Shown here piece by piece: positions 34,736-54,172 of a stretch of 64,000 bases of DNA. The stretch lies in assembly GCF_054482595.1 (NCBI RefSeq), contig NZ_CM137008.1. One strand, 5' to 3'. The notes under the pieces were generated by a model. That model was given only the letters and a program-made list of their open reading frames with translations. It searched no databases and had not been told where the DNA came from. The stretch's first letter is position 1. Each line of letters begins with the position of its first letter. The position numbers and the translations under genes are program-made.

Positions 34736-36736
34736 TCATCCTTGTTGCTGAAGCATAGGGAATAATTGTTCGCACAGCAAAACACCGTTATTCATTGTTT
34801 CTACCCGTGCCTCGCTTTCTGTATTACGAAATTGTCCCAACACATGTGCCAGCCGATAAAAACCCACCGCGGTGAGGTCATTCGCCAGCAACTCTGCCTG
34901 ACCAATAGCACTCTGTTCCTGATAGCGCCAGCCGTTATGGAGCAGTTGAATAAGTAATGCCTGGCAGCGCATCAGCAACTGATGAGCAGTAGACGGCACA
35001 GGCAGAACGCTGGCAGAAGGTAGCGGTGCCACAGGCGCAGTTTCTGCGTCCAGCGCCCAGGCACGAGTCTTTGTCATCATTACCTGTGGTTCCAGTGTCA
35101 ATTGCCCATCAACAAAACTGACAAAGCCAGAAACCAGACACACGGGGTCGTCTGTTTGTTGCAAAAGCGCCGCCATGCGTTCAACGGCATAAGGCGCGCT
35201 GGCTGAGGCTGGCAGTGATAACGTCAGCTGATTATCTTCACCTTCGCCGCTGATTACCTGCGCATCCAGCGTTTGGCGGCTGCTATCCCAACCTAGTGAA
35301 ATACACTCAGCGACCGGCAGAATAAATAAGTTATCGACCTGATTAAGAGGCCGTATGCAGGCGGGGGGACGCTGGCGTAAATATTCCCGCAAAGCCACAA
35401 TGCCCGGCTGGCGCAACGGCGCGCTCAACATTTGCCAGGCATCTGGCGACAGTGGAACAACACTACTCAAGCGGTTACGGGTCGCGAACAGCAGTTCGCC
35501 TTCGGCACTGCGACGCGCTGCTTGTGAAACAATTTGCCCACCTGCCAGTGCGCCAGCCTGAAAACTAAACAGCCGACGTTTTGCCGCGGGAGCGTTTTCT
35601 TGTTCGCTTCTCGGCCAACTACGCGAAAGATGCAAAATACTGCCGGTGTCGGGATCGGTAAACCAGATGCGTAAACCATAATGCTCAATATCCTGCCAGC
35701 AACGCATACCTAAAGACACCAGCCGCAGATGATCAAGCTTTGCTTCTCCGGCAATGCCAGAGCCAACGACCGTGCGCCACGGCACAGGAGGAACTTCACC
35801 AACACTGTCGCGCCGGGCCATCTCTTGTGCGCAATTTAATCGACTGTTTAATGCCGCAAGCTGACGTAAGCATTCTCCGGCATGATAGTGGCTGGCGCGG
35901 GCGTGGAAGGCATCAACGCTGGCGCGCAGTTGCCGTAGCGATTCACTCACCCAGCGCCAGTTGCAGGCCTCTGCCGCCTGCAATGCGCGGTTGAAAGCGG
36001 CCTCGTAGTGAATAAGCGGCTGGCTGATGCCGCTCAGCCATAATGCCTGGCTTAGTTGTTGAACATATTGACGACACGTTTTGCCTTCTTCGCTGGCAAA
36101 CGGATCGTCAGATGATGTGACGTGTTCGCTGCGCATCTGCCAGATTAAATGAGTAAATTCCGCTTGCTGAGTTTTTGCCTGGACAAAGGCCTGTACTGCC
36201 AGTACGACATGTTCGCAAAGTGTGCCTTCAATACAATCACAACGGGCGAAACGAATGCTGCTACGGGAATAAAAACGCACATCGCTCATCGGTAAGCGGG
36301 CAGAGGGAATTTCGCCCGGCGTACAGAACAACTCAATGGTGATGCCTTTAGCGACCAGCGCCTGTGCGCGTTTGCGGGTGGTATCGGGCAGGGTAGCCAG
36401 TTCTTCCAGCCAGATTGCCGGATCCCACTCTTCTTCTTTTTCCGTGGGCTGGACGGTGGCACAAAGTCGTTGATAACTTAACACCAGCATCACGCGATGA
36501 CGGCACATGCCGCTGGCCCCGCAGCTGCACTGAGCCTCTTTCAGTGCCTGGCTGTTCGCCAGCTGGGTACGGACACCGTCACTGAAGGTGGCGATTAAAG
36601 CGCCGTTCTCATGGCTGATCTCCGGGACGTTGCCATTTTCCAGTTCCTTAAGACTGCGCTTAACAAAACCGGCATTGCTTAACGCTGTCAGGGCCTGCGG
36701 TGTCAGTTCTAATAATTCCGGACGTAGTGAATTCAT
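34736..36736 (-). CDS. yehQ: SWIM zinc-finger protein (two CxCx5CxH motifs), last gene of yehLMPQ operon
   Basis: Start chosen at ATG 36736, which forms ATGA overlap with yehP stop (track ORF extends to 36760); motifs CSCGASGMCRH and CDCIEGTLCEH read directly. Exact start uncertain. Confidence 0.8.
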   Translation of the reverse strand: MNSLRPELLELTPQALTALSNAGFVKRSLKELENGNVPEISHENGALIATFSDGVRTQLANSQALKEAQCSCGASGMCRHRVMLVLSYQRLCATVQPTEKEEEWDPAIWLEELATLPDTTRKRAQALVAKGITIELFCTPGEIPSARLPMSDVRFYSRSSIRFARCDCIEGTLCEHVVLAVQAFVQAKTQQAEFTHLIWQMRSEHVTSSDDPFASEEGKTCRQYVQQLSQALWLSGISQPLIHYEAAFNRALQAAEACNWRWVSESLRQLRASVDAFHARASHYHAGECLRQLAALNSRLNCAQEMARRDSVGEVPPVPWRTVVGSGIAGEAKLDHLRLVSLGMRCWQDIEHYGLRIWFTDPDTGSILHLSRSWPRSEQENAPAAKRRLFSFQAGALAGGQIVSQAARRSAEGELLFATRNRLSSVVPLSPDAWQMLSAPLRQPGIVALREYLRQRPPACIRPLNQVDNLFILPVAECISLGWDSSRQTLDAQVISGEGEDNQLTLSLPASASAPYAVERMAALLQQTDDPVCLVSGFVSFVDGQLTLEPQVMMTKTRAWALDAETAPVAPLPSASVLPVPSTAHQLLMRCQALLIQLLHNGWRYQEQSAIGQAELLANDLTAVGFYRLAHVLGQFRNTESEARVETMNNGVLLCEQLFPMLQQQG

Positions 36737-37869
36737 GACTGAAGATTCTCCGCAAGCCATGATGCCAGCTCGCCCGGTGTCATGGCGGCTATTTGTGCGC
36801 CGACATTTACCAGCACCTGGGCCGTATCGTGGTCATAGCAAGGTGTTGCGGTGCTATCGAGCGCCGCCAGTCCCAGCACTTTGATGCCGCTCTGGACACA
36901 CTTTTTCACCTGATGCGTCAGTAATGATGATGAACCCCCTTCGTAAAAATCGCTCACGAGGATAATGACGCTTTTCGCTGGTTGTTCAATAAGTTGCCGA
37001 CCATATTCCACGGCACTGGCGATATTGGTTCCGCCGCCTAATTGCACTTTCATTAATAACTCTACCGGATCGGCAACGTCTGCCGTGAGATCAACCACGC
37101 TGGTGTCAAACGCCACCAGATGGGTACGAATGCCGGGTAACTGCCATAAACAGGCCGCCATCACCGCAGAGTGGATCACCGAATCGACCATCGAGCCGCT
37201 TTGATCAACCAGTAAGACCAGTTGCCATTGTTCGCTTTGGCGTTTAATGCGGCTGTTAAAGCGGGGGGATTCGATATACAACTTGCCGTGTTGCGGGTGC
37301 CAGTGTTGCAGGTTGGCGCGCAGAGTACTTTTGAAATCAAAGTTTCGCGCCAGTGGAATAAATGAGCGGCGACGGCGATCGCGGACACCAGAAAAAGCCT
37401 GACGAACTTCCTTTGCCAGTCGAGCCATAATTTCTTCAACAACCTGGCGCACTATCCGGCGGGCGGCAGCCAGTACTTCGGGATTCATCAGATGTTTGGT
37501 GTGCAAAACGGCGCGTAGCAGGCTTTCAGAAGGCTGCATACGTTCCAGCACGTCGAGATTCGTCACCACATCTTCAATGCCATAGCGCAGTACGGCATCG
37601 CTTTCCAGCCGCTCAATCACCTGTTGCGGAAACAGCGTGTGAATACTGTTGATCCACTCAGGGGGGGTGAGATTTGAGCCACCTAATCCACCGGAGCGTT
37701 CACCACGCTGGAGCCGTTCAGGATCGCGCCCATACAGCCACTCCAGCGCGTGGTCTATCTGCCGGGCGTTGTCATCCAGCCCACAAAGCGTCGTTTCTGC
37801 CGCTTCGCCAAGAATTAATCGCCAGCGTTGTAGCTCACGGGTGGTCAGAAGATCGTTCAGTTCAGACAT
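36733..37869 (-). CDS. yehP: von Willebrand factor A (vWA) domain protein with MIDAS motif
   Basis: ATG at 37869 (MSELNDLLTTRELQRWRL…, 378 aa) overlaps yehM stop by 8 nt; MIDAS DQSGSM…GGT…SDF read directly; track ORF extends further upstream inside yehM. Confidence 0.85.
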   Translation of the reverse strand: MSELNDLLTTRELQRWRLILGEAAETTLCGLDDNARQIDHALEWLYGRDPERLQRGERSGGLGGSNLTPPEWINSIHTLFPQQVIERLESDAVLRYGIEDVVTNLDVLERMQPSESLLRAVLHTKHLMNPEVLAAARRIVRQVVEEIMARLAKEVRQAFSGVRDRRRRSFIPLARNFDFKSTLRANLQHWHPQHGKLYIESPRFNSRIKRQSEQWQLVLLVDQSGSMVDSVIHSAVMAACLWQLPGIRTHLVAFDTSVVDLTADVADPVELLMKVQLGGGTNIASAVEYGRQLIEQPAKSVIILVSDFYEGGSSSLLTHQVKKCVQSGIKVLGLAALDSTATPCYDHDTAQVLVNVGAQIAAMTPGELASWLAENLQS

Positions 37870-40141
37870 GGAAAACTCCCCAGTTTTGCAGCGATGCCAG
37901 TGCCTGCTGTTCGAGTTGTTGATGATGTGCAATGGCTTGTGGTGGACAATGCAACGGCATTTGCAGCGCCGAAACGGGAAGTTGCGCCAGTTGATAATGC
38001 TCAAGCACCTGATGCGCCAGCGTCCCGCGTTCTCGTGGTGGTAGCCAGGCCATCGCCGCGCGTAAATCGGGCAGGGCATTGATAAAATTGGCATCACTCA
38101 GTTGATTTAAATGACTGCTGAAACCGGCGATAAATGCCGGCTGACAGGCCAGTTGATGACGGGCTAATGCCAGCAAACCGTGCAGCGCTTCGCCGGATTG
38201 TGCCGGGGATAACTGCGCCAGCATCGTCAGCGCCGCTTCGGCACTGGCGTTGGGATGTTCCAGACGCATCAGTGCGCCAAGAGCCGCGCCGCGATCCAGC
38301 GCCGGGGCATGGATTGCCTGACTGCGTCGCTCCAGTAAGGCTACCGCCGCAGAAAGAGAAATGCCGGGGAGCTGCACACCGCTATGCAGATCGCGCAGGA
38401 TATGACACAACGCTTGCCAGCTATGCAGGTGAGCGTGAAACTCCTTTTCATCCGGTCTGCCGTTGGATTCACACAGCCACAGCGTGCGATCGATAGCCGC
38501 GCATAACGTCGTTTGTAATATCTGCGCGCCTTGCATACCGCTAATTTCATCCAGCCGCCATAAGGCATATAGCACTTCCAGCGCCTGGCCCATTTCGGCA
38601 AATTGATTTTCCTGGGCTATTAATAATGTGAGTTGTTCCAGTAATTGTTGACTGAAGGACGCCAGACCCGCTAACGCTGCCTGGCTAAGACATGTGGTGA
38701 TACTGCCGATTCCACCCGCGTCCAGCATATCGGCTTCTAATTTATGGCGTGCGGCTTCCTGGAGTGTGGCACCAAAGCAGGCGGCCTCAATCAATGCCGC
38801 ATGCTGGCTAAGCGGGCGGGTTAATTTCCAGCGTTCTTCACCGTTGCCTGCAAGTGTCAGTGTGCTTCCCTGCTGGCGTACAATCCCTGGGATCTCCAGT
38901 ATTGCCAGCCGATGTAACACCTGACTTTGCGCTAGTCCATTGGGGTTAAAGCGATTTAAGGTAAGCTCCGCCGGAAGAGAGATTGCGGTACGTTCCAGTT
39001 CGCAGGTGACATCTTTTGGCAGAGGCGGTTGTGGCGTAGAAGGGGCAAGTTTACCGAATCCGTCACCCGCTAATGTGTCTATCAACGTTAGCAGAATCGG
39101 ATCGGTGTCGGGATGAATAACTCCGCGATAGCTCCACGGCAACGGCGCGTTCAGGGCTTCTTTAATCAGCGAGCCTGCTATGGCATCCAGCCAGTCAGTG
39201 CGTAACGGTAGTTTATGTCCGCGCAACTGTGCCAGCGCCATCGCATGCAGATGAGCGGCAGCCATATCCGCGGTCGAAGCAGGCAAGTGGTGTTGGCGCA
39301 AACGGGTAAGAACCGTTTTTAGCAGTTGTTCTCCCGCCTGCTGTAAGCCCCACTGCCAGCACCAGCTTTGCCAGACCGGGGCAGGCATTCCTGAAAGGTA
39401 TCCTGCCAGCACATCAAGGCGCTTTTCACTGTAGGGTGTGAGATAACAACCTGTAACGGCATCTGCCAGCGAGGGCAATTCTGGCTTGTTAATGTCCTGC
39501 GGGCATTCGCGCCACATTTTTGCCAGTGCCGGAGCGTGCCAGCCACCGCAGACGACTAACACGTCGCCATTATTTTGCTGCACCGCCCATGCAATCCAGC
39601 GAGCCATAAAGGCTTCGCGCTGACGATTGAGTGCATCGCCGGGGAAATCGCCCCGCAGTTGGGCAAAATAGTGCGCCAGTGCAGAGGGTAATGCAGTTTG
39701 CTGGCTTTCATCTTCGAACAAGTGATCCCACAGGGTATCGCTGTTATCCATGCGGGTGGCACGCAGCAGCAAGGTCTGGCTTTCCTCTTGCGTATCAGGC
39801 GAATCGTCCTCTTCTTCACTCTGTGCCCAGCAAGGCAAATCGATGAAGTAAGTTTGTGCCTGAATACGACGAGCGGCTTGTAGCGCCTGCCACTCCGGCG
39901 AAAATTCAGCAAATGGCGTCCAGGCACCACGCCCGGGGGCTGCACCGTCCTGATACTGGCAATAACTGTAAATAGCTACCGGAAGCTGGTGGGCTAAAAA
40001 CAGTTCGTCTACCCGGTCATTAAAATCAGCCGGGCCTTCAATCAACACGTATCGTGGCCGCTGGCTTTCGATTAACGATTTCACCAGCCGGGCGCAGGCC
40101 GGACTATGATGCCGGATGCCGACAATTAACGGCTCGCTCAT
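37862..40141 (-). CDS. yehM: Large protein of unknown function (YehM family)
   Basis: ATG at 40141 (MSEPLIVGIRHHSPACARL…, 759 aa) lies 10 nt after yehL stop; the track's 815-aa version would overlap yehL. Confidence 0.85.
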   Translation of the reverse strand: MSEPLIVGIRHHSPACARLVKSLIESQRPRYVLIEGPADFNDRVDELFLAHQLPVAIYSYCQYQDGAAPGRGAWTPFAEFSPEWQALQAARRIQAQTYFIDLPCWAQSEEEDDSPDTQEESQTLLLRATRMDNSDTLWDHLFEDESQQTALPSALAHYFAQLRGDFPGDALNRQREAFMARWIAWAVQQNNGDVLVVCGGWHAPALAKMWRECPQDINKPELPSLADAVTGCYLTPYSEKRLDVLAGYLSGMPAPVWQSWCWQWGLQQAGEQLLKTVLTRLRQHHLPASTADMAAAHLHAMALAQLRGHKLPLRTDWLDAIAGSLIKEALNAPLPWSYRGVIHPDTDPILLTLIDTLAGDGFGKLAPSTPQPPLPKDVTCELERTAISLPAELTLNRFNPNGLAQSQVLHRLAILEIPGIVRQQGSTLTLAGNGEERWKLTRPLSQHAALIEAACFGATLQEAARHKLEADMLDAGGIGSITTCLSQAALAGLASFSQQLLEQLTLLIAQENQFAEMGQALEVLYALWRLDEISGMQGAQILQTTLCAAIDRTLWLCESNGRPDEKEFHAHLHSWQALCHILRDLHSGVQLPGISLSAAVALLERRSQAIHAPALDRGAALGALMRLEHPNASAEAALTMLAQLSPAQSGEALHGLLALARHQLACQPAFIAGFSSHLNQLSDANFINALPDLRAAMAWLPPRERGTLAHQVLEHYQLAQLPVSALQMPLHCPPQAIAHHQQLEQQALASLQNWGVFHV

Positions 40142-40151
40142 GCATCTTTCC

Positions 40152-41240
40152 TCACGGCAGGCGGTGGCGGGCTTGATAATAAGCCTGCCAGTGAGCTTCT
40201 TTATGTGTGGCGACACGCTGTTCGAAGTAACGGCGCAGACGAGCGCGATCTTCTTCGTTATCTTTGACGATGGTTCCGGCAATGCAGTCCACCAGATCGG
40301 CTGGCTCACCTGCGCGATTCGCTAAAAACCAGGCGCGGACGCCCACGGCGTGGGCCACGTTCACGGCTTCAGCGGTGGACATAATCGCTGTTAGTGTATC
40401 CATTGACGTTTTCTTTTCGCCGTTGGCACGCAGATCGCGGAAGGTGCGGACCAGTAACTCCAGTACCGCGTCAGGCACTTTATGCGGAATACCGCTATGG
40501 GCCAGCAAACGCGCCGAAGCACTGGCGACAAGCTCCAGCTCCTGGGCGAAATCCATAATCGGAAAGACAGTTTCAAAATCGAAGCGACGCTTTAGCGCAG
40601 CACTCATTTCATTGACGCCGCGATCGCGGGTATTGGCAGTGGCAATAATATTAAAGCCTTCTCGCGCATAGAGCTGACTGGCTTCACCAGTGAGTTCCGG
40701 CACCGTCATCACCCTGTCAGAAAGCATACCTAACAGACAGTCTTGCACTTCCAGCGGTGTACGCGTTATCTCTTCAAAACGGACGATTTTGCCGTCGCGC
40801 ATTCCCTGGTAAAGCGGGGCAGGGACCAGCGCTTCCGTTGATGGACCATGATTGATAAGCAGGGCGTAGTTCCAGCCGTACTTGATTTGATCTTCGGTAG
40901 TAGATGCGCCGCCCTGGATGGTTAACCCGGCATCGCCGCTAATAGCGGTTACCAGTAATTCAGACAGGAGAGATTTTGCGGTGCCAGGTTCCCCCACCAA
41001 CATCAAACCGCGTCCGGTGGCAAGAGTGACTAACATACGTTCGACAGCGGAGGGACTAATCACCACTTTACGGCTAATATTTTGCGCGCTATCGCCAAGG
41101 ATAAAAGCACGGGCCGCAGGCAAACTTAACTGCCAACCGGGCGGGCAAGGTGCGTTATCATTTTGTTTTAATTTTGCCAGTTCATCGGCGTATAACACAG
41201 CAGCAGGCGGACGCTGCAGATGATTATTCTGCGGTGACAT
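40152..41240 (-). CDS. yehL: MoxR-like AAA+ ATPase
   Basis: ATG at 41240 (MSPQNNHLQRPP…, 362 aa); Walker A GEPGTAKS, sensor-1-like ATANT read directly. Confidence 0.85.
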   Translation of the reverse strand: MSPQNNHLQRPPAAVLYADELAKLKQNDNAPCPPGWQLSLPAARAFILGDSAQNISRKVVISPSAVERMLVTLATGRGLMLVGEPGTAKSLLSELLVTAISGDAGLTIQGGASTTEDQIKYGWNYALLINHGPSTEALVPAPLYQGMRDGKIVRFEEITRTPLEVQDCLLGMLSDRVMTVPELTGEASQLYAREGFNIIATANTRDRGVNEMSAALKRRFDFETVFPIMDFAQELELVASASARLLAHSGIPHKVPDAVLELLVRTFRDLRANGEKKTSMDTLTAIMSTAEAVNVAHAVGVRAWFLANRAGEPADLVDCIAGTIVKDNEEDRARLRRYFEQRVATHKEAHWQAYYQARHRLP

Positions 41241-41351
41241 ATATTCATCCCTGAAATGTATTAATGAAATAAACGATATTTTACGCGCAATAAATGTTTG
41301 GCTCATTAGTTGTTTGAGCGAAAAATATCTGGAAAGCAGATCACAGTAAAT

Positions 41352-41434
41352 AAAAAAACCTGCTGGTGAGGCAGGTTCTTTTATTTACTATTTTCAGGCC
41401 TAACACCACAGCCTGTGCAACATCGTGTTCCAAC
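41352..41434 (-). ncRNA. orzO: Antisense sRNA antitoxin of the first zor toxin copy (OrzO/OrzP type)
   Basis: Minus-strand sigma70 promoter (-35 TTGCAA 41469..41464, 17-nt spacer, -10 TATAAT 41446..41441); terminator hairpin cctgctggtgaggcagg (41359-41375) followed by U7 on minus strand; 5' 19 nt complementary to the toxin leader. O versus P copy assignment is from memory and uncertain. Confidence 0.55.
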
Positions 41435-41440
41435 GAACGA

Positions 41441-41491
41441 ATTATAACCACGGCTGGACCCCGTTGCAATTAAGATAATGAGATTTATAAT
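41441..41491. promoter_or_regulatory. Back-to-back divergent promoters of sRNA and toxin mRNA sharing one palindromic -35 hexamer
   Basis: Plus strand: -35 TTGCAA 41464-41469, 16-nt spacer, -10 TATAAT 41486-41491; minus strand uses the same TTGCAA with -10 TATAAT at 41446..41441. Confidence 0.5.
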
Positions 41492-41762: not shown

Positions 41763-41784
41763 CGGGCAAATTGAAACGCATCTA

Positions 41785-42042: not shown

Positions 42043-42048
42043 GAATAA

Positions 42049-42479: not shown

Positions 42480-42797
42480 TTATTCTATTTCTTGGTTGAA
42501 TATATTCTGTAGTTTACGATTAAAAATTGCTATTACAGTTTCAGGTGATTCACCTCGTAATTTCCGCTCATCAATACACTCATCTCTTATATAAATCAAC
42601 GCATCATTTATTAGCGGGTCAGCATCTTCTCGATCACGTTGATGAAATGTTGAACGTAGCCGGAATCGCTCCAGTCGATAGACGGAACCTGTAAATAATT
42701 CAGAGCATTTATGGATCTCAAGTCTGAAGGAAAACGGATCTTCAGGTACAGGGACCTCATAATCGTAAATAGCAACCAGCTCTTTTTGCACGATCAT
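42480..42797 (-). CDS. yehK: Small protein of unknown function
   Basis: 105-aa ORF 61 nt downstream of yehI on the same strand; recognised as YehK. Confidence 0.75.
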   Translation of the reverse strand: MIVQKELVAIYDYEVPVPEDPFSFRLEIHKCSELFTGSVYRLERFRLRSTFHQRDREDADPLINDALIYIRDECIDERKLRGESPETVIAIFNRKLQNIFNQEIE

Positions 42798-42858: not shown

Positions 42859-45800
42859 TTAATGGAAAATGACGTCAGGTGCGCTTAACGCCTCACTCAA
42901 ATTAAACACATCAAGTTCGGCAAAAGTGACGGATTTATTGTCACGGTACACTCGAAGAGAACGGAAGCTCATTAACGCTTTGCTATCAACATTGTAGTGG
43001 TTAAAACCGGGTGAAAACTTAAGGACCAGCCGGTACTCGCCCAGGTCATAGACAAATGCATCCTCATAGCCTGACTCCCAGCCTTTGTATCGCATTCCCA
43101 TAAGCTGCCCAACGGTAGCGGATTTACCTTCCCAGCGAGTCAGGCTGTTACTGGTTGACTCGTCAGGTGTGAGCAGCACCGTGCGCCGCGCCAACTGGCG
43201 AAAAGGCGGCATAATTTCGTAATCGGCAAAAAGCTGTGCAAATTCACTGCGCATTTCTACTGTCATTTCTAACGGGTGGGCAATGCCAATCAGAGCGTCC
43301 GCAGGCAGGTCAATTGGCTCATCTTGCGCATTGCAGAACTCCCCCTCTGCGGCCACACGAAAGGCGTTGAGTAAACAACGCGGTTCATTTGCCGGATAAG
43401 CCCCCCATATTAATCGCTGGGTAACCAGACGGGTAAAGGGATGATTAACAAACAGAGAATGAAAATCTGCCAGCGACCAGCGTCGGGTGGTACGTAGGGC
43501 CGTTTCAAGACGCGGGAGCAGGTTTTTGCTCACCTGAGTAGCATCTTTTTTTAGCCCTTTTAGTCGGGCCAGTGCCTCGGGCGCTTTCAGTTGATCGTCA
43601 TCGGCACGCAACCGGGGAACACTTTTCTGGCGAACGTTTTGTTGATCAAAGATAACCGGGTTGAGGTTTTCATCGAAGCGAACGGTAAACTGCCGGGGAC
43701 CAAAATCAAAAATCAACGCCTGCGGATCATCAAGACCTAGTGTTGGGACTAATCTGTCCGCTAACTCTTCCTGGCTTAGCCCGCGATTTTCTGCGACCAC
43801 CTGAAGAAATTCCGCTGCGTTTTCACGTAATGAAGAGGATTTCGCCCGTTGTGATACATGATGCAGCTGTATCAGCGCCATATCATTATTCATCAAGGTA
43901 AGTATATTCAGACCAATGACAGCACGGGCAGATTTGCCTTCTTGTGGCCAGGCGAGGATCTGTGTCGTCAGATCCCGAGCCGTGCTTTCGTCACCAAAGA
44001 GACTTAACGCCAGAAATGCCCAGTTGTCTTTTGCGGGGGCACCAGCTTGTTGCCACGCAGTGAAGAGATCCCAGGCAAAAGCGGCCAGCGTTTGTGGCTG
44101 GCAAAACGTTTTCAGTTGTTCCAGACCGCTATAAAAACGTCCGCCCTGGGTAAAGCGCAGCATTTCGCCGATAATTTCCAGAGCGTCATCGGTAACAGGC
44201 TGATTATTAGTGATAAGTCGCGGCCTGGACCACATTGCCGGATGCCAGAAATCAGGGGCTTTTGGAATGCGTGCCGGGTAAATGTCCATTGGACCCTGTT
44301 TCAGTAAATGCTCCAGGGCAGGCCATACATCTGTACGCTGCCAGCGGTTTGCCACGGTTTGCAGCAATTCACCATGTCCCTGTTCGTAAAGTAAACGCAG
44401 GGCAAGTAATGCAGCTTCGCTATTATCGCTGGATTTGGTGAAGACAAGAGGGATAAGTGCAGTAGCCGTATGTTCCGGCCAATGTAAAATCCACTGGCGA
44501 GCCAGATCACGCTGCACCGCGAAACGTCGCCAGACGCGGGCAACGGGCAGGGCCAGTTCTGTTGCGCCAAAATTTAAAATTAACGGAAATGTTTCTTTTG
44601 GACGATGTAAAAAAGCCAACATCAGACCTGGTAGCGCATCCAACCCGAGGATACTGAGAAAATAGTCCTCACCCGCGAACAGATGTTTTTTCTCATTGAT
44701 ACGCAGCCAGAAGGTCAAAGCCATCTCACGCGGCAACTGTGCCAATAAATACAGGTTCCAGACACTCTTTTCCGGACGATAACGTGAGTAGTTGTCATTT
44801 TCCCATATGTTAATTAACGCTTCTATGTGACCGCTGCGGAGCGCCTGTTCTGCTAATTGTGCTTCCGGGGAGTTCCAGCCATTCAGGATCTCTTCAACCC
44901 GCCCCTGGTAGTAATGCCACTGAACAATGAGTGAATTGCGTGCAGCATCCAGTTTTCCGGGGAGTATATAATTCAGAAACAGCCATACATCATCCCCAAA
45001 ACCCAGTTCCTGTAATACAACTCGCCCACTTTTTTGTTCCATGCGTTCCGCAAGAGATTCCGTGCTGAAATAACGGGCAGACTCAGTGGAGGCAAGCCAC
45101 TCTTGTTCGCCTGGTTGCCAGTAAACTTGCGGGGTTAATTCGAGCGGTGCCAAATCAAGACGTGGAGCTGTCATTTTTTTCTTACTACGCCACGGTGGTG
45201 AAACGAGGATTTCAGGCAGATTGCTGTTATCGGTGCCATCAATAACCGGTTTGGGCGGTGCCAATAAATAACTATTCAGTACTGCCCGGGCTTGAGTACT
45301 TAACCACTGCATCACCTCTTCTGCCAGTTGTGGCTGCGATGCCATCAGCGTTTGTAACAGCGTACGCCAGTATTCATCGCGTGCTTTTTGCTGGGCAGGC
45401 AGCTTTTTGTCTTCGATGATTGGATAACCAAGGCGGGCTGGTGGTTCTTTTAACGCCAGCAGTTCTGCCAGTGCCGCGAGCGTCGCGTGGGGGAAGTTTT
45501 TACTGTATTTAGCCACACGTTGCAGGCTGGGTTTGTTTTTATCAGCCACCAGTAGCAAGGTGTGGATGACCTGCGGATGGTTAATTTGTACCAACAGACT
45601 GCCGCAATCTTCTTTATGGGCATACATCGCGAGGCGCGGAATGGCTGCCAGTCCTTGTTCGCGCAAAAGGGCGGCGCAGGCCGCGTAGCCGAAGTGGTTT
45701 TTTTGTGACATGTAGCTGGCTTCGCGATCGCTAAATACGTCCAGGCCCCAGTATCGTTCGAGTTTTTTTACCGCCGTATTATCAGTAGCAACGACCTTTA

Positions 45801-46491
45801 ACCACTCCTTTGAATGGAGACTTGACCGGGAGCTTTCAAGACTGGCGAGTTCATTGGCTATTTCAGGCTTTTCCGGGAGGATCAGCGCAATAAAAGGACG
45901 GCGAATTTTGGGTATTCCTGGCAGTGCGGCAATGAGTTTATCGGCACAACGCTGCCAGCAACTTTCCTCTGCCAGCGACAGATGCTTACGCAAACGGAGA
46001 TCGAAATCGTTATAGGTCGCGGAGCCATAACCGTAGCCATAGTCCTCGTCCTGATACTGCAAAGTGACGACCAGTGAATCACTCTCATAACGCCGCGCAA
46101 TGCACTGACGCGCCATCACTACATCCGTCGCATATTCCAGCCCCTCTTGTTGGACGATTTCGTCGAGCAACTGTTGGCTGTCATTTTGCGCGATACAGGC
46201 TAGCGCCGCCATTGTCCGGGCCGGGATTGAGGGTTTGTGTTCGCCGATCAAGTTGATGGCCTGCGTGATGGCGGACTGCCACTCCAGTGAAAAATTTTCA
46301 TAACGCCAGACAATGTTTTTTTTCTTCTCAGCTTTTTGTAGCAATTCATCACCCAGTGTCTGAATGATGCTTTCAGTGATAACAGGCACTGGTTCGCCCG
46401 GCCAATTGCGATGGCTGAGTGGTGTTTTACCCTTTTTATATTTCAGTTCCAGTTGGGCGTTATCAGCCAGCCACGGTAATTCCTTGTCCAT
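42859..46491 (-). CDS. yehI: Giant DUF4132-family protein (1210 aa), paralog of MolR without the N-terminal WGR domain
   Basis: C-terminal ~450 aa strongly similar to the two upstream paralogs (e.g. AWDLFTAW…GAPAK…NWAF; LADYE…PPFRQL); recognised as YehI. Confidence 0.9.
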   Translation of the reverse strand: MDKELPWLADNAQLELKYKKGKTPLSHRNWPGEPVPVITESIIQTLGDELLQKAEKKKNIVWRYENFSLEWQSAITQAINLIGEHKPSIPARTMAALACIAQNDSQQLLDEIVQQEGLEYATDVVMARQCIARRYESDSLVVTLQYQDEDYGYGYGSATYNDFDLRLRKHLSLAEESCWQRCADKLIAALPGIPKIRRPFIALILPEKPEIANELASLESSRSSLHSKEWLKVVATDNTAVKKLERYWGLDVFSDREASYMSQKNHFGYAACAALLREQGLAAIPRLAMYAHKEDCGSLLVQINHPQVIHTLLLVADKNKPSLQRVAKYSKNFPHATLAALAELLALKEPPARLGYPIIEDKKLPAQQKARDEYWRTLLQTLMASQPQLAEEVMQWLSTQARAVLNSYLLAPPKPVIDGTDNSNLPEILVSPPWRSKKKMTAPRLDLAPLELTPQVYWQPGEQEWLASTESARYFSTESLAERMEQKSGRVVLQELGFGDDVWLFLNYILPGKLDAARNSLIVQWHYYQGRVEEILNGWNSPEAQLAEQALRSGHIEALINIWENDNYSRYRPEKSVWNLYLLAQLPREMALTFWLRINEKKHLFAGEDYFLSILGLDALPGLMLAFLHRPKETFPLILNFGATELALPVARVWRRFAVQRDLARQWILHWPEHTATALIPLVFTKSSDNSEAALLALRLLYEQGHGELLQTVANRWQRTDVWPALEHLLKQGPMDIYPARIPKAPDFWHPAMWSRPRLITNNQPVTDDALEIIGEMLRFTQGGRFYSGLEQLKTFCQPQTLAAFAWDLFTAWQQAGAPAKDNWAFLALSLFGDESTARDLTTQILAWPQEGKSARAVIGLNILTLMNNDMALIQLHHVSQRAKSSSLRENAAEFLQVVAENRGLSQEELADRLVPTLGLDDPQALIFDFGPRQFTVRFDENLNPVIFDQQNVRQKSVPRLRADDDQLKAPEALARLKGLKKDATQVSKNLLPRLETALRTTRRWSLADFHSLFVNHPFTRLVTQRLIWGAYPANEPRCLLNAFRVAAEGEFCNAQDEPIDLPADALIGIAHPLEMTVEMRSEFAQLFADYEIMPPFRQLARRTVLLTPDESTSNSLTRWEGKSATVGQLMGMRYKGWESGYEDAFVYDLGEYRLVLKFSPGFNHYNVDSKALMSFRSLRVYRDNKSVTFAELDVFNLSEALSAPDVIFH

Positions 46492-46500
46492 GCTCTTTCC

Positions 46501-49500
46501 TTATTCAAACAGGGCTTCAATATCGTTAATTAGCTCGCTGGCGGTGATGGCATCGAGTACGGAGAGCTGCGCTTCCTGTGTTGAATTACTCCCCCAGCCA
46601 TAGCTTTCCGCTTTGCCTTCCCATAGCCACTGCTTGCTTAAGAGTTGCTCGGCACTCAGTTCGGCTGGCGACATGCCTACCGCAAAGCCTTCATCGATTT
46701 CCATGATTAACGACCAGCGGCCCAGAGGTTTGATCATCCAGCCGATCCAGCCTCCATCCTGTGGTTCGCCCTTTATCCAGCCTTTATTCGCCAGCCCCAT
46801 TACCCGACCGCTCGGGCATTTTCTGCCTGCCCAGCGGGTCAGTTCGCTGGCATTGCGCTCGGTTTCTGTCAGGGCGTAACTGTTACGGTCGAGCTGGCGG
46901 AACGGCGGTAGCAGTTCGTAGTCGGCAAAAAGCTGCCCAAATGCGGCGGCATCCGTCGGTGATATTTCCAGAACGTGAGGAATACCAACAGAGATATCGC
47001 CTTCCGGCAGGGTGAAAAGATCATCGTCAGCGGTGCTGTAGCTGTTATCTTCCGCTACCCGGAAACAGGCCAGTAGCTGGTTTTCGGCGCTATAAACGCC
47101 CCAAATCAGACGGCGGGTTAAGTGGCGAACTAGCGGATGCTCAACCAGGAAGAGCTGAAAGTTATCCGGTGACCAGCGGCGACGCAGGCACATGGCGGAT
47201 TCCAGCCTTGCTACCTGCTGGGCGGCGACGGTACGCGCATCTTTTTTCAGCAGTTTGTAGCGGTTAACAGCATCGTTCGCCTGTGATTCATCATCGCTTT
47301 TGTTTGGTTTGGGCAGGTCTTTCAGACGGCTGCCAGAAACATCACGCACAAACGGTTTTAAGGTTTCATCAAAGCTGACGGTGAACTGGCGTGAGCCGAA
47401 ATCCAGCAGCAACGAACCGTTATCATCCAGACCGAGATCCGGTGCTAACCGATCTTCAAGCTCTGCCACCGTGAGTTCGCGGCTTTCGGCAATGTCGGCA
47501 ATTTTTTCTTTTGCCCGCTCCTGTAATGCTTTGAATTTCAGTTTCTGGGCAATACCGTTAAGCTGCATCAGGGCGATATCACTACCGATAGCGGCGAGAA
47601 TATCCAACCCAACGGTGGCGCGTTTATGCTGGGATTCACCAGGCCAGGCGCGTATTAATGGCGTCAGTTTGCGGGCGGTGTCATCGTTACCAAGAACGCC
47701 TAACGCAGTGAACGCCCAACTCTCTTTCGACGGTGCGCCCGCAGTCAGCCAGGCGGTAAACAGATCCCAGGCAAATTCAGCCAGTGAGTCGGCGGTACAG
47801 GCATCTTTCACCTGCAATAATCCCGGATACAGGGCCTCTTCCTGAGGGAAGCGGAGCATTTCACCGAGGTGCTGGAGTGCGCTATCTGGCAGTGATTGGG
47901 CGTTTGTATTTAATACCGGGCGCGTCCAGAGCGATGGCTGATAAAAGGCCGGAAGAGTGGGGATTTTTGTCGGGTGATTATCTAAGGGATCGAGCGCAAG
48001 CAGAGCGTTCACCGCGTCGGTTACTTCCGGCTGGTTATAACGCCGGGCGATTTCTTGCAGTAATGGCTGATGACCGTTTTCGGTAAGCATACGTAAGGCA
48101 GCGCGAGCGTTATCTTGTGCTTCACCGGCTTTGCCGAGCGCCGAAGGCAGCAGGCCGGTTATGGCGTGTTCCGGGTATTTTAGCAGCCAGCTACGGGCGT
48201 CTTGTCGTAGGGTTTTGAGTTTGTTGAAGGCGCGGGCAATGAATGGAGCCAATTCGACAGCCGCGAAATATTGTGCCACGGGAAGAGCTTCCTGCGGATA
48301 GCGAGATGCTGAGTGGATAAAACCTGTTAAACCAGCAAGTCGAAGATGCAACATTACTTGTTTTTCACCTGTATGTGGTTCTTTACTAAGGATATTCCAC
48401 ATCTCAATAGCTTTATTTATGGGTAAAACATGGAGTGAAGAAAGCTTCCATTCGCCCTGATAAGGGGCGTTATAGGACTTAAAAGCATCGATCAAAGTTA
48501 AATAATCTTCACGCTGCCAAGCATCCAACGCTATTTCTGGAATATCAATATAGCCTCTATGTTTGTTCCAATCCCAGCGGTCGAATCCCAGGGAATTCAG
48601 AAAACCTTTTTCTCCCTCTGCTTGCTGACGAGGTTGCCAATTATGCTGCACTTGTAGTCTTTTGCTTTTTGTTTCATTTATTGTACAGAAAGATTCCAGG
48701 GGTAATGGTGCTAAATCCAGCACTGGAGTCGGCGATTTTTTCTTTTTAGCCTGCCACGGCGGTGAGACTAATACGGCAGGCAGCATATCGGCGTTCGCAT
48801 AAACTGAAGGTTGTGTCAGTTGTTGCTGGCATGACTTAAGAACGGTAACTGTCGGGGCAGATAGCCAGGAGATCACCCGTTCTACTAATGTTGGTTGTGA
48901 GATAAGCATCGTCATTAGCATCATGCGCCAGCGCTTTTCATCTTTTTGTGCCAGAAGTTCTGCTAATGCCGCCAGCGCTGCATGTGGAAAGCGAACGAAA
49001 GCCTTTGTCATGCGATCGTGGCAACGCTTTCCCTGCTCACTTGCATGGATAAGTAGTGTAAGTGCTTGCGGGTGGTTGATATGCATCAACACTTCCCCAC
49101 ATGTGTCACCAGCAGCGTAAGGGGCAAAACGGGCCAACGCAGCGACACCTTGCTCCTTGAGTACTGTCGCACACCAGATTTTACCGCCGTAATAATCATC
49201 AAATACCTGCCCTGGCTGTCCTGGATAGTATTTCCCCAGTTCTGCCAATACCTGCTCGTCGGTGGTCGTCAGTTTTAGCCATTCCAGCGCATATACCCCT
49301 TTTTGTCCGCAAAGATGTCTGGCAATCTCATGAGCTACTTCTGGTTTTTCCGGCAACAATAGTGCGACCAGCGGCTGGTTCCAGGCGGGCATGTTTCCGA
49401 GAGCGGCAATCAGTTTGTCGGCGCAGCGCTGCCATACATCGTCATTTGCAAGTGAGAGATGCTTACGCAGGCGCATTTCAACCGAAGCGAAGCGTGACAG

Positions 49501-50259
49501 ATAGTCAGGCTGCTTGTTATCCGGGGTAAAAGTAATGAGGTGGGCATCATAATTCCAGTCAAATCGGATGAATTGCAATGCGATGACAACCTCAGTGGCA
49601 TATTCCAGACCACCTTCCTGGACAATTTGATCCATTAACTCTTCGTGATCGTTACGATTGAAGCCTTGCTCCAGCGCAACCAGTACCGCCAGAACCATCG
49701 GTAGTAGTGTGGTGCTAATCGGCGAGTCGATAAGGCCCACTGCTTGTGTAATCGCCTGCTGCCAGTCCAGTGAACAGGTGCTGTAATCGAAGGTGATCAC
49801 CTTTTTAAAACGCCGGTGAGTATTCGCGGAGACGGAGCGTAGCAGGGTTAATTCATTCTCCTTTGGCACAGGATCGCCAGGCCAGCGTCGATGACTTAGT
49901 GTGGTTGGCGCAACCTCTGTCGGTAAAATGATTTGGGCGTCGTCTGCCAGCCAGGGGAGGTGGTCTCCAGTCAATGCTGGTTTGTCTTGTGGCAAAGGGG
50001 CTATTTCAGGGCATTCGATAACCTGGGTGGGTACAGATGTCGGTGTCATCACGGATACTTCTTCTACGTAGCCCTTTTTTGTTTTCTCCGCAATCAGCTT
50101 CAGTTCCGCTTTTTCCGCCGCCGCAGCATCTGCAAAGCTTTTTACCTGACTTTGCCCGTTAGTGCCGACTTTACCCCAGGTTATATGCAGCTCGTTTCTC
50201 TGCTGCTCCACCGCCCAGAATTTATGTGATTTTTCGTCCTGATAAATATAGGTTTTCAT
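46501..50259 (-). CDS. molR: MolR-like giant protein (1252 aa): N-terminal WGR domain + C-terminal DUF4132
   Basis: N-terminus MKTYIYQDEKSHKFWAVEQQRNELHITWGKVGTNGQ… is a WGR domain; intact reading frame; 9 nt upstream of yehI. Which of the two copies corresponds to K-12 molR/yehH is unresolved. Confidence 0.85.
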   Translation of the reverse strand: MKTYIYQDEKSHKFWAVEQQRNELHITWGKVGTNGQSQVKSFADAAAAEKAELKLIAEKTKKGYVEEVSVMTPTSVPTQVIECPEIAPLPQDKPALTGDHLPWLADDAQIILPTEVAPTTLSHRRWPGDPVPKENELTLLRSVSANTHRRFKKVITFDYSTCSLDWQQAITQAVGLIDSPISTTLLPMVLAVLVALEQGFNRNDHEELMDQIVQEGGLEYATEVVIALQFIRFDWNYDAHLITFTPDNKQPDYLSRFASVEMRLRKHLSLANDDVWQRCADKLIAALGNMPAWNQPLVALLLPEKPEVAHEIARHLCGQKGVYALEWLKLTTTDEQVLAELGKYYPGQPGQVFDDYYGGKIWCATVLKEQGVAALARFAPYAAGDTCGEVLMHINHPQALTLLIHASEQGKRCHDRMTKAFVRFPHAALAALAELLAQKDEKRWRMMLMTMLISQPTLVERVISWLSAPTVTVLKSCQQQLTQPSVYANADMLPAVLVSPPWQAKKKKSPTPVLDLAPLPLESFCTINETKSKRLQVQHNWQPRQQAEGEKGFLNSLGFDRWDWNKHRGYIDIPEIALDAWQREDYLTLIDAFKSYNAPYQGEWKLSSLHVLPINKAIEMWNILSKEPHTGEKQVMLHLRLAGLTGFIHSASRYPQEALPVAQYFAAVELAPFIARAFNKLKTLRQDARSWLLKYPEHAITGLLPSALGKAGEAQDNARAALRMLTENGHQPLLQEIARRYNQPEVTDAVNALLALDPLDNHPTKIPTLPAFYQPSLWTRPVLNTNAQSLPDSALQHLGEMLRFPQEEALYPGLLQVKDACTADSLAEFAWDLFTAWLTAGAPSKESWAFTALGVLGNDDTARKLTPLIRAWPGESQHKRATVGLDILAAIGSDIALMQLNGIAQKLKFKALQERAKEKIADIAESRELTVAELEDRLAPDLGLDDNGSLLLDFGSRQFTVSFDETLKPFVRDVSGSRLKDLPKPNKSDDESQANDAVNRYKLLKKDARTVAAQQVARLESAMCLRRRWSPDNFQLFLVEHPLVRHLTRRLIWGVYSAENQLLACFRVAEDNSYSTADDDLFTLPEGDISVGIPHVLEISPTDAAAFGQLFADYELLPPFRQLDRNSYALTETERNASELTRWAGRKCPSGRVMGLANKGWIKGEPQDGGWIGWMIKPLGRWSLIMEIDEGFAVGMSPAELSAEQLLSKQWLWEGKAESYGWGSNSTQEAQLSVLDAITASELINDIEALFE

Positions 50260-54072: not shown

Positions 54073-54172
54073 TCTGCATCCCTGTAATTTTATCCAGTTG
54101 AATGCAGATGCTACCAGTATTTATGCGGGTTAGAGAGAGACAAAATCGTAAGAAAACAACTTTAGGAATTTA

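What the first reader, a model, noticed from the sequence alone, without database searches (positions are those of the whole stretch)
34736..41240. yehL-yehM-yehP-yehQ: a translationally coupled MoxR AAA+ / vWA / double-SWIM operon with no known function
Four minus-strand genes are packed with 10-nt, 8-nt-overlap and ATGA junctions, so they are almost certainly co-translated as one unit. YehL carries a MoxR-type Walker A (GEPGTAKS), YehP a complete vWA MIDAS (DQSGSM…GGT…SDF) and YehQ two SWIM zinc fingers (CSCGASGMCRH, CDCIEGTLCEH); YehM (759 aa) has no motif I recognise. MoxR-vWA pairs usually act as ATP-driven remodelling or metal-insertion modules, and SWIM fingers bind nucleic acid or protein partners. 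To my knowledge no function is assigned to this operon, so a novel conflict/defence or complex-maturation system is plausible.
Basis: partly seen in the sequence, partly recalled or inferred. Interest (0 to 1): 0.8.

Follow-up and report, generated by a model that had tools for sequence, protein, structure and literature searches.

The report
Unexplained E. coli ATPase–protease gene cassette
The yehL-yehM-yehP-yehQ genes are real, tightly coupled and conserved from E. coli to soil and gut bacteria, and they look like the core of a still-uncharacterised ATP-driven machine that pairs a remodelling ATPase with a likely protein-cutting enzyme and likely DNA-binding partners.

Summary
The domain labels were already public (RefSeq/K-12 annotation; YehL names one of seven MoxR subfamilies), so that part is not new.

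Three things are new here.
- YehM is not motif-less. Its N-terminal domain has the TIKI/TraB/ChaN fold and keeps the family's GxxH…E…R…GxxH signature across four phyla, followed by a HEAT-like solenoid.
- YehQ carries one invariant SWIM finger, a second that is degenerate in Actinobacteria, and a tandem OB-like module resembling RPA70/HIN.
- The genes belong to a larger cassette. In 72 of 81 loci, 1–3 WGR–DUF4132 giants sit beside L-M-P-Q, and the giants share a conserved acidic C-terminal tail.

A Lachnospiraceae variant keeps SWIM+L+M+P, and two Myxococcota genomes keep only L-M-P. No PADLOC match and no functional paper were found.

My best reading (confidence about 0.4) is an ATP-gated proteolytic switch linked to nucleic-acid sensing, serving stress or conflict. 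It is a new variant of the MoxR–vWA kind, with the function still open.

The parts
40152..41240 (-). yehL: AAA+ ATPase of the MoxR family in the broad sense (YehL subfamily, AAA_5 type).
   Evidence: Pfam AAA_5 at 1.8e-33. The closest solved sequence is a midasin AAA module. In 79 orthologues the following are at least 97% conserved: Walker A GEPGTAKS, a Walker B-like IVRFEE (E156-E157), sensor-1 N203 and R218/R219. dN/dS is 0.056 against K-12.
37862..40141 (-). yehM (DUF5682): an N-terminal TIKI/TraB/ChaN-fold domain (about residues 1-240, putative hydrolase) followed by a HEAT/ARM-like helical solenoid.
36733..37869 (-). yehP: CoxE-type von Willebrand A protein with a complete MIDAS and a conserved N-terminal helical region.
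   Evidence: Pfam VWA_CoxE at 1.5e-71 over residues 151-372. D222, S224, S226, T281 and D307 are at least 97% conserved in 78 orthologues. dN/dS is 0.065.
34736..36736 (-). yehQ: two SWIM fingers (residues 70-80 and 166-176), a helical bundle (216-311), two beta-rich OB-like domains (about 331-428 and 470-561) and a C-terminal helical bundle (583-665).
42859..46491 (-). yehI: a DUF4132 giant (1210 aa) without a WGR domain. It is a paralogue of the two giants upstream and a co-conserved partner of the cassette.
   Evidence: It is 31-38% identical to the other two giants and annotated as a DUF4132 protein. Giants lie adjacent to L-M-P-Q in 72 of 81 loci. dN/dS is 0.20.
46501..50259 (-). Second WGR-DUF4132 giant (1252 aa), corresponding to the molR/yehH region that is a pseudogene in K-12.
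   Evidence: Pfam WGR over residues 7-67 (1e-17) and DUF4132 over residues 976-1161 (4.2e-51). Its WGR domain matches PDB 2ra8 at 1.9e-16. It ends in the conserved tail ...ITASELINDIEALFE.
50272..54072 (-). First WGR-DUF4132 giant (1266 aa), corresponding to the molR/yehF region in K-12.
   Evidence: It is 44% identical to the second giant over the full length, with an N-terminal WGR-like sequence and the same C-terminal tail. K-12 keeps only a WGR fragment, yehF.
54080..54099 (-). LexA-box-like sequence AACTGGATAAAATTACAGGG, 8 nt upstream of the first giant's ATG. It has one mismatch to CTGT-N8-ACAG.
   Evidence: Read from the sequence. There is no perfect box anywhere in the window. A review lists molR among E. 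coli genes with a known SOS box (PMC6590174); I did not verify that this is the published box.
42480..42797 (-). yehK: a 105-aa ORF between yehI and the zor-orz insert. Whether it belongs to the system is doubtful.
   Evidence: Annotated as YehK. It matches no NCBIfam or PADLOC family, and in PHROGs only phrog_36295, one of the near-identical function-unknown families (see Noticed in passing). The Klebsiella loci L003 and L082 have only about 190 nt between yehI and yehL, so there is no counterpart there.

Best explanation
yehLMPQ encodes the conserved core of a self-contained multi-protein machine.

Proposed mechanism:
- YehL, an AAA+ ring of the MoxR/CbbQ/midasin type, and YehP, its vWA adaptor, use ATP to grip and remodel a partner protein. 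The grip is made when the YehP MIDAS metal site binds an acidic residue on that partner.
- YehM supplies a TIKI/TraB-type hydrolase domain, most likely a peptidase, mounted on a HEAT-like scaffold.
- YehQ (SWIM finger plus tandem OB-like barrels) supplies nucleic-acid recognition. In most lineages 1-3 WGR-DUF4132 giants do so too.
- The giants' conserved acidic C-terminal helix (…ASELIRDLEAL) is my candidate docking peptide or client handle.

I therefore read the system as an ATP-gated proteolytic switch coupled to sensing of unusual DNA or RNA. I think it serves a stress or conflict response (damaged or invading nucleic acid) rather than the biogenesis of a housekeeping enzyme.

What is shown: gene order and coupling, domain and fold assignments, motif conservation, co-occurrence, distribution and purifying selection.
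What is inferred: physical complex formation, ATPase-driven remodelling, peptidase activity, nucleic-acid binding, the tail as MIDAS ligand, and the biological trigger.
For: Co-inheritance:
- 72 of 81 loci from Gamma-, Beta- and Alphaproteobacteria, Actinobacteria and Myxococcota carry giant(s)+L+M+P+Q on one strand. Six of the nine exceptions are cut by contig ends.
- On a Sinorhizobium plasmid the giant sits between yehM and yehP.
- Lachnospiraceae keep a SWIM protein plus L-M-P, with the SWIM motif at the same residue, 71.
- The short overlaps between the genes are conserved.

Catalytic and binding motifs:
- The ATPase and MIDAS motifs are conserved.
- The YehM N-domain matches TIKI-superfamily structures. 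It keeps two GxxH motifs plus Glu and Arg. This matches the His/Glu catalytic set and the conserved basic residue that were shown essential in the TIKI-family endopeptidase RRSP (PMC6254334).

Nucleic-acid link:
- The YehQ beta-domains resemble RPA70, LEF-3, HIN and POT1.
- WGR is the PARP-type domain. By sequence it matches PDB 2ra8 at 1.9e-16; the PARP3 chain 2eoc matched only at E=0.43, which is not significant.

Accessory or conflict-like behaviour:
- The phyletic spread is patchy, with some copies on plasmids, one of them beside a type I R-M system.
- Giants occur in 1-4 copies per locus.
- In E. coli the giants are far more variable and more often decayed than L-M-P-Q: 680 versus 5202 genomes with at least 80% coverage.
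- H-NS/StpA silences yehL and yehM (PMC3686432).

Stress link:
- molR is listed as an SOS-box gene.
- Deinococcus WGR and DUF4132 genes are in the DdrO damage regulon (PMC8533742).

No conserved client-enzyme gene lies next to the cassette.
Against: - There are no experimental data for any step.
- The TIKI assignment rests on fold and motifs. Profile-profile comparison with the TraB family is weak, P about 0.02, and some superfamily members (ChaN, PMT C1) are not enzymes.
- The OB-like matches have marginal E-values and low TM-scores, and OB folds also bind proteins.
- No LexA-type boxes were found upstream of the cassette in 35 other loci, so SOS control is at best local to E. coli.
- There is no PADLOC hit and no systematic defence-island context in the crude neighbour analysis.
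- The cassette is nearly core in E. coli, which is atypical for defence systems.
- DUF4132 shows no recognisable catalytic or effector motif, so the output of the proposed switch is unknown.
- Two Myxococcota genomes have L-M-P without Q or adjacent giants.
Confidence: 0.4

Rival explanations
1. Classical MoxR-vWA assembly chaperone. YehL-YehP, helped by YehM and YehQ as scaffolds, matures or inserts a cofactor into a dedicated client. The client could be the WGR-DUF4132 giants themselves or an unlinked enzyme. This would parallel CoxD-CoxE, NorQ-NorD, CbbQ-CbbO and RavA-ViaA. No proteolysis and no nucleic-acid trigger would be involved.
For: YehP's best family is VWA_CoxE. The weak NCBIfam relatives of YehL are GvpN and MadB, i.e. 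the CbbQ/GvpN/NorQ group. Every characterised MoxR-vWA pair acts this way (PMC3893208; PMC7159879). The system is nearly core in E. coli and under purifying selection. The historical gene name molR refers to molybdate metabolism.
Against: No client enzyme gene is conserved next to the cassette in 81 loci. The strictly conserved TIKI-type His/Glu/Arg signature in YehM argues for catalysis rather than a passive scaffold. The SWIM/OB/WGR content is unexplained by this model. H-NS silencing and the decay of the giants in many E. coli strains do not fit a housekeeping maturation factor.
Confidence: 0.25
2. A dedicated anti-phage or anti-plasmid immune system. The giants and YehQ would sense invading nucleic acid. 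The MoxR-vWA pair would set the activation threshold, and YehM would process an effector, causing abortive infection or growth arrest. This would be analogous to the MoxR-vWA ternary conflict systems.
For: The modular architecture (invariant L-M-P core plus variable large partners) resembles the ternary systems of Kaur et al. (PMC7159879). The distribution is patchy and some copies are plasmid-borne, including one beside a type I R-M system with IS elements and an integrase, and one near SMI1/KNR4-type genes. The giants are multi-copy, fast-evolving and frequently inactivated. H-NS silences yehL and yehM.
Against: None of the seven proteins matches a PADLOC model. The system is not among the described VMAP, iSTAND, FtsH or beta-propeller systems, and YehP carries no effector domain. 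There is no recognisable toxic effector anywhere. It sits at a fixed chromosomal position in 99% of E. coli genomes. The neighbour analysis found no recurrent defence genes. It is essentially absent from phage genomes.
Confidence: 0.2
3. The YehM N-domain is a non-catalytic ligand- or peptide-binding module, like the haem-binding ChaN or the inactive PMT C1 domain. On this view the whole system is an ATP-driven remodeller or extractor acting on nucleoprotein complexes, for example evicting proteins from damaged DNA during SOS, without proteolysis.
Against: Full conservation of both GxxH histidines, the Glu and the Arg-Glu pair across four phyla is hard to explain without catalysis. PMT, the inactive superfamily member, has lost the 2His/2Glu motif (PMC6254334). 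No LexA boxes were found in other taxa.
Confidence: 0.15

Closest known systems
CbbQ-CbbO, NorQ-NorD and CoxD-CoxE (AAA_5/CGN-type MoxR ATPases with a vWA adaptor)
   Same: A small AAA_5-type ATPase is encoded next to a vWA protein with an intact MIDAS. YehP is specifically CoxE-type, and YehL's weak NCBIfam relatives are GvpN and MadB.
   Different: Those pairs sit beside their client enzyme genes (Rubisco, NO reductase, CO dehydrogenase). Here no client enzyme is linked. The pair is instead locked to DUF5682, a SWIM/OB protein and WGR-DUF4132 giants.
MoxR-vWA ternary conflict systems (VMAP, iSTAND, FtsH, beta-propeller; Kaur et al. 2020, PMC7159879)
   Same: Both have a MoxR+vWA pair plus an obligatory third large component with helical repeats. 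Both are modular, with variable partners, are abundant in Actinobacteria and Myxococcota, and have a CoxE-like N-terminal helical region on the vWA protein.
   Different: The third component here is DUF5682 (TIKI-like plus HEAT), not VMAP, iSTAND, FtsH or a beta-propeller. YehP has no fused effector domain. The paper mentions neither SWIM, WGR nor YehL. The bpMoxR Pfam match is only E=0.008.
Midasin/Rea1 (eukaryotic AAA_5 ring with a MIDAS domain)
   Same: Midasin is the closest solved relative of YehL by sequence (8.5e-10). The logic is the same: an AAA ring pulls through a MIDAS that binds an acidic residue of the substrate.
   Different: Midasin is a single 4,700-4,900-residue polypeptide with six AAA modules that acts on pre-60S ribosomes. 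YehL is a 362-aa single-module protein with a separate vWA partner.
RavA-ViaA, the other MoxR-vWA pair of E. coli
   Same: It belongs to the same broad family and is a two-gene ATPase+vWA operon in the same organism (PMC3893208).
   Different: It belongs to a different MoxR subfamily, has no DUF5682, SWIM or DUF4132 partners, and has known interactors (Nuo, per the title and abstract of PMC3893208; fumarate reductase and lysine decarboxylase, per the passage of PMC7159879 read).
TIKI/TraB/PrgY/erythromycin-esterase/ChaN/RRSP superfamily
   Different: Sequence similarity to TraB/YbaP is not significant (P about 0.02). YehM fuses the domain to a HEAT-like solenoid of about 500 residues and is always partnered with an AAA+/vWA pair, a context I did not find described for this superfamily in the literature searched here.

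Membership tests
MoxR AAA+ family in the broad sense (Snider & Houry; YehL subfamily) | An AAA+ core of the helix-2-insert clade (Pfam AAA_5 or AAA_3). | tested here: met
   AAA_5 at 1.8e-33 over residues 79-220. The closest PDB sequences are midasin AAA modules. The literature names YehL as one of seven MoxR subfamilies (PMC3893208).
MoxR AAA+ family in the broad sense (Snider & Houry; YehL subfamily) | Intact nucleotide-binding and hydrolysis motifs: Walker A, Walker B, sensor 1 and Arg finger. | tested here: met
   GEPGTAKS, IVRFEE, N203 and R218/R219 are at least 97% conserved in 79 sequences. There are two deviations: Ala replaces the last Gly of Walker A (as in MCM proteins, from my own knowledge), and Glu replaces the Walker B Asp.
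MoxR AAA+ family in the broad sense (Snider & Houry; YehL subfamily) | Genomic pairing with a vWA-domain protein. | tested here: met
   yehP lies two genes downstream in the same coupled operon in E. coli, and in 79 of 81 loci; the two loci without yehP are cut by a contig end.
MoxR-proper (MRP, Pfam AAA_3) | A significant match to the AAA_3 model. | tested here: not met
   AAA_3 scores only E=0.055. YehL is a separate subfamily, closer to the CbbQ/GvpN/NorQ group.
vWA/MIDAS proteins (CoxE type) | A vWA fold with the full MIDAS motif DxSxS…T…D. | tested here: met
   VWA_CoxE at 1.5e-71 covering model positions 1-222 of 222. D222, S224, S226, T281 and D307 are at least 97% conserved.
SWIM zinc finger | The CxCxnCxH zinc-chelating signature recognised by the family model. 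| tested here: met
   The first finger has Pfam E=1.1e-3, and C70, C72, C78 and H80 are invariant in 33 sequences from three phyla. The same motif occurs at residue 71 in the Lachnospiraceae homologues.
SWIM zinc finger | A second functional SWIM finger (the 'double SWIM' claim). | tested here: inconclusive
   Pfam gives only E=0.21. The CDCx5CxH pattern is present in Proteobacteria, but the cysteines are replaced in Actinobacteria and several Myxococcota.
TIKI/TraB/Ere/ChaN superfamily (YehM N-domain) | [quoted passage not shown] | tested here: met
TIKI/TraB/Ere/ChaN superfamily (YehM N-domain) | The catalytic His/Glu set with a conserved basic residue (two GxxH motifs). | tested here: met
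   G8-x-R10-H11, E35, R175-E176 and G199-G200-x-H202 are conserved in 79 sequences and in the 27%-identical Lachnospiraceae clade. The role of these residues is taken from PMC6254334. I could not inspect their spatial clustering in the model because no coordinates were available.
TIKI/TraB/Ere/ChaN superfamily (YehM N-domain) | Statistically significant sequence-profile homology to a member family. | tested here: inconclusive
   hhalign of the YehM N-terminal profile against a YbaP/TraB profile of about 80 sequences gives P=0.015-0.019 and probability of about 3%. The four motifs do align colinearly when the alignment is extended.
MoxR-vWA ternary conflict systems (Kaur et al. 2020) | A third component of VMAP, iSTAND, FtsH or beta-propeller type, and effector domains fused to the vWA protein. 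| tested here: not met
   The third component is DUF5682. YehP has only the N-terminal helical region and the vWA domain. The paper mentions neither SWIM, WGR nor YehL.
Known anti-phage defence systems (PADLOC-DB v2.0) | A match of any component to a defence-system protein model. | tested here: not met
   There are no hits at E<=0.01 for YehL, M, P, Q, I, K or a WGR giant.
CoxD-CoxE-type metallocluster maturation modules | Linkage to the client enzyme genes, such as CO dehydrogenase or a molybdoenzyme. | tested here: not met
   No such genes occur in the window flanks. No recurrent neighbour family occurs in 81 loci beyond lineage-specific synteny, such as RpoD and MacB.
LexA (SOS) regulon | A LexA box upstream of the operon, conserved across species. 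| tested here: not met
   E. coli has only a one-mismatch box before the first giant, and the literature lists molR as an SOS gene. None of 35 other loci has a box in the upstream region; three relaxed matches (two LexA-type with one mismatch, one actinobacterial-type with two) all fall just inside the coding sequence. I did not find one upstream of yehL itself.

The most novel reading that the evidence does not exclude
The seven-gene yeh locus (three WGR-DUF4132 giants plus YehL, M, P and Q) is a previously unrecognised class of nucleic-acid-triggered, AAA+-gated proteolytic machine. WGR, SWIM and OB modules would detect DNA ends, single-stranded DNA or protein-DNA adducts. The MoxR-vWA motor would then deliver a protein to a TIKI-type peptidase. 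This would be either a bacterial counterpart of the eukaryotic p97/SPRTN-style removal of proteins from DNA, or a new immune sensor. It is nearly core in E. coli and spread across at least four phyla.
Probability: 0.2. Interest if true: 0.85.

Novelty: new variant of a known kind. Interest (0 to 1): 0.6.

Why it matters
Four to seven adjacent genes that nearly every E. coli carries still have no known function. They form a tightly co-inherited module found in at least 535 of the roughly 100,000 species genomes scanned. A divergent clade of the module is abundant in human-gut Lachnospiraceae.

YehM can now be read as a probable TIKI-type hydrolase and YehQ as a SWIM-plus-OB protein. The giants also have a shared acidic tail. 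Together these turn an opaque operon into a concrete, testable mechanism with named catalytic residues to mutate and named interfaces to probe.

If the model holds, it would add a new architecture to the MoxR-vWA world. It would also give a function to the WGR-DUF4132 proteins, which are DNA-damage-inducible in both E. coli and Deinococcus.

Tried and rejected
- **Literature.** All ten searches are used. No paper assigns a function to yehL, M, P or Q, DUF5682 or DUF4132. Most hits were author-name noise or strain tables.
- **Sequence search of the PDB.** YehM, YehP and YehQ gave nothing, and the YehM profile gave only spurious ATP-synthase b matches.
- **Conserved SOS control.** No LexA-type or actinobacterial-type boxes were found upstream of the cassette in 35 other loci, so I rejected SOS control as a general feature.
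- **Phage origin.** Rejected. The one 'phage' hit (MT835988) is an unverified faecal contig that belongs to a Lachnospiraceae clade. The near-identical PHROG families are probably chromosomal sequence caught by over-extended prophage calls.
- **DUF5716/DUF5717 as alternative partners.** Seen only on that one contig, not in two other Lachnospiraceae loci, so I did not treat it as general.
- **A conserved sixth component or recurrent defence neighbours.** All-against-all clustering of flanking ORFs found only lineage-specific synteny, such as RpoD and MacB.
- **Foreign base composition.** GC is 51-56% across yehLMPQ, close to its surroundings.
- **Apparent L-M, M-P and P-Q fusion proteins.** These appear in the homologue lists as about 97%-identical E. 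coli singletons from raw assemblies. They are most simply frameshift artefacts at the overlapping junctions, and I did not use them as evidence.

Full report
**1. The observation**

The window is E. coli chromosome, the metG–yeh region.

The junctions are a 10-nt gap, an 8-nt overlap and an ATGA overlap. The quoted motifs are at YehL 83, YehP 222, and YehQ 70 and 166.

The block is in 5361 of 5426 complete E. coli genomes, mostly at 95-99% identity. Against K-12 it is under purifying selection, with dN/dS of 0.06, 0.14, 0.07 and 0.14 for L, M, P and Q, compared with 0.02 for metG.

**2. Domain checks**

| Protein | Pfam result |
|---|---|
| YehL | AAA_5, 1.8e-33 (AAA_3 only 0.055) |
| YehM | DUF5682, 1.4e-98 |
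| YehP | VWA_CoxE, 1.5e-71 |
| YehQ | SWIM, 1.1e-3 and 0.21 |

- NCBIfam gives YehL only weak sub-threshold GvpN and MadB matches, YehP only two weak sub-threshold matches, and nothing for M or Q.
- PADLOC gives nothing for any of seven proteins in the locus.
- By sequence, the closest solved relative of YehL is a midasin AAA module. M, P and Q have none.

These labels are not new. K-12 already annotates YehL as a 'putative AAA(+) MoxR family ATPase', YehP as a VWA protein and YehQ as a SWIM protein. YehL is the name-giving member of one of the seven MoxR subfamilies (PMC3893208).

Across 79 and 78 orthologues respectively, the YehL motifs and the YehP MIDAS are at least 97% conserved. For YehL these are GEPGTAKS, IVRFEE, N203 and R218/R219. 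For YehP they are D222, S224, S226, T281 and D307. Both proteins look competent.

**3. What YehM is**

The invariant residues of the family fall into the superfamily's signature: G8-x-R10-H11, E35, R175-E176 and G199-G200-x-H202. The His/Glu residues and a nearby basic residue were shown to be essential in the TIKI-family endopeptidase RRSP. The inactive relative PMT has lost them (PMC6254334).

The signature survives in a Lachnospiraceae clade that is only 27% identical, as GIRH, VEGP, REAYM and GSYH.

A direct profile-profile comparison with a YbaP/TraB profile is not significant (P about 0.02), although the four motifs align in order. I therefore treat the fold and motif assignment as well supported and the enzymatic activity as inferred.

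**4. What YehQ is**

A model from 33 homologues is very confident, with pLDDT 91.1 and pTM 0.88. It shows, in order:

- two SWIM units
- a helical bundle
- two beta-rich domains (about 331-428 and 470-561)
- a C-terminal helical bundle

The first SWIM is invariant (C70, C72, C78, H80). The second has lost its cysteines in Actinobacteria and several Myxococcota.

**5. The real unit is larger**

In the 80 best loci plus one more, HMM searches gave the following:

- WGR-DUF4132 giant(s)+L+M+P+Q together in 72 of 81 loci
- six of the nine exceptions cut by contig ends
- giants in 1 copy (42 loci), 2 (10), 3 (21) or 4 (1)

The giant gene is upstream in most taxa and downstream in Burkholderia. On a Sinorhizobium plasmid it lies between yehM and yehP. 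The 4-nt overlaps recur everywhere.

In this window three intact giants lie upstream, at 50272-54072, 46501-50259 and 42859-46491 (yehI). They are 31-44% identical to one another, and the first two carry WGR.

All 117 giants examined end in a conserved acidic helix of the type LDPIxASELIRDLEAL. The DUF4132 region itself has conserved motifs but nothing recognisably catalytic.

There are variants:

- Two Myxococcota MAGs have only L-M-P.
- A large Lachnospiraceae clade has a 490-506-aa SWIM protein, with its motif at residue 71, then an unrelated 640-730-aa protein, upstream of L-M-P.

So L-M-P is the invariant core and the SWIM protein a near-constant partner. The largest partner is lineage-specific.

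**6. Context and regulation**

- In E. coli the giants are separated from yehL by a 1.2-kb tandem zor-orz type I toxin-antitoxin insert with terminators (PMC2887945). yehLMPQ is therefore its own transcription unit.
- H-NS binds upstream of yehL, and yehL and yehM are derepressed in hns/stpA mutants (PMC3686432).
- A one-mismatch LexA-like box lies 8 nt before the first giant's ATG, and molR is listed among SOS-box genes (PMC6590174).
- In Deinococcus, a WGR protein and a DUF4132 protein are in the DdrO damage regulon (PMC8533742).
- No such boxes occur upstream of the cassette in 35 other loci.
- Within E. coli the giant region is covered at 80% or more in only 680 genomes, mostly at 90-95% identity. 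It is decayed in K-12 and is a transposon target in ST131 (PMC9334617). L-M-P-Q, by contrast, is stable.
- The cassette occurs on 38 plasmid records, including a 77-kb Iodobacter plasmid where it sits beside a type I R-M system and IS elements. It is essentially absent from phages.
- No recurrent extra neighbour was found.

**7. Interpretation**

The best-supported mechanism is a self-contained machine. An AAA+/vWA motor (L-P) would act with a TIKI-type hydrolase on a HEAT scaffold (M). Nucleic-acid-binding partners (Q and the giants) would complete it. The giants' acidic tail is a candidate MIDAS or docking ligand.

I favour an ATP-gated proteolytic switch used in a stress or conflict response, at confidence about 0.4. 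The rivals are:

- a classical maturation chaperone (0.25)
- a bona fide anti-phage system (0.2)
- a non-proteolytic nucleoprotein remodeller (0.15)

The system is not one of the MoxR-vWA ternary systems described by Kaur et al., whose paper mentions neither SWIM, WGR nor YehL (PMC7159879). It does share their logic.

**8. Verdict**

What is new is the anatomy: the TIKI-like YehM, the OB-like YehQ, the giants' tail, and the five-component cassette with its variants.

Function remains unknown. I rate it a new variant of a known kind, with interest 0.6.

Noticed in passing
window 41241-42479: The yehK-yehL intergenic region holds a tandem duplication of two units of about 500 bp, 87% identical to each other, forming the zor-orz type I toxin-antitoxin locus. 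Two 29-aa toxin ORFs lie on the + strand at 42281-42370 (MDTLTQKLTVLIAVLELLVALLRLIDLLK) and 41673-41762. Two OrzO-P antitoxin RNAs lie on the - strand at 41962-42035 and 41352-41427. The insert is absent from K-12, whose intergenic region is 0.3 kb.
   Followed up: yes
window 42859-54072: This strain has three intact WGR/DUF4132 giants. K-12 has only a WGR fragment (yehF), a pseudogene (yehH) and yehI. Only 680 of 5426 E. coli genomes cover at least 80% of this region, mostly at 90-95% identity, so it is a hypervariable or decaying segment next to a stable one.
   Followed up: partly
C-termini of the giants, e.g. window 46501-46560 and 50272-50330; loci L002-L082: All WGR/DUF4132 giants, in every phylum sampled, end in a conserved acidic amphipathic tail (LDPIxASELIRDLEAL-like), about 90 residues beyond the Pfam DUF4132 domain. 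It looks like a shared docking peptide.
   Followed up: partly
window 34736-34900 compared with K-12 yehQ (L084 17101-18945): K-12 YehQ is 614 aa, while the form in this window, which is the commonest in E. coli, is 666 aa. The laboratory-strain protein therefore lacks part of the C-terminal helical bundle.
   Followed up: no
L087 (GenBank MT835988.1): This record, labelled 'UNVERIFIED: Bacteriophage sp.', carries the yehL, yehM and yehP homologues followed by DUF5716, DUF5717, MgsA and a polysaccharide deacetylase. Its YehM is 98% identical to a protein cluster from gut metagenomes, and the named relatives of that clade, at about 62-64% identity, are Lachnospiraceae. It is probably bacterial chromosome, not phage.
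   Followed up: partly
PHROGs families phrog_30700, 33984, 31592, 29006, 20839 and 36295: These families of unknown function are near-identical to E. coli YehM, YehP, YehQ, the giants and YehK. They are most likely chromosomal sequence swept into the phage-protein library by over-extended prophage boundaries.
   Followed up: no
L038 and L045 (Myxococcota MAGs): These loci carry an L-M-P-only version of the system without YehQ or adjacent giants. It is followed by a conserved pair of genes: a 310-350-aa protein with a hydrophobic segment and helical repeats, and an 830-890-aa Cys-rich secreted-looking protein.
   Followed up: partly
L011, L013, L016, L021, L027, L030, L032: In Xanthomonadales and Comamonadaceae the cassette lies immediately upstream of rpoD on the same strand. 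This is probably synteny, not function.
   Followed up: no
YehL residues 83-90 (window about 40971-40994): The Walker A motif is GEPGTAKS, with Ala where most AAA+ proteins have Gly. The same deviation occurs in MCM helicases (from memory). Walker B is FEE rather than hDE. Both deviations are conserved in all orthologues.
   Followed up: partly
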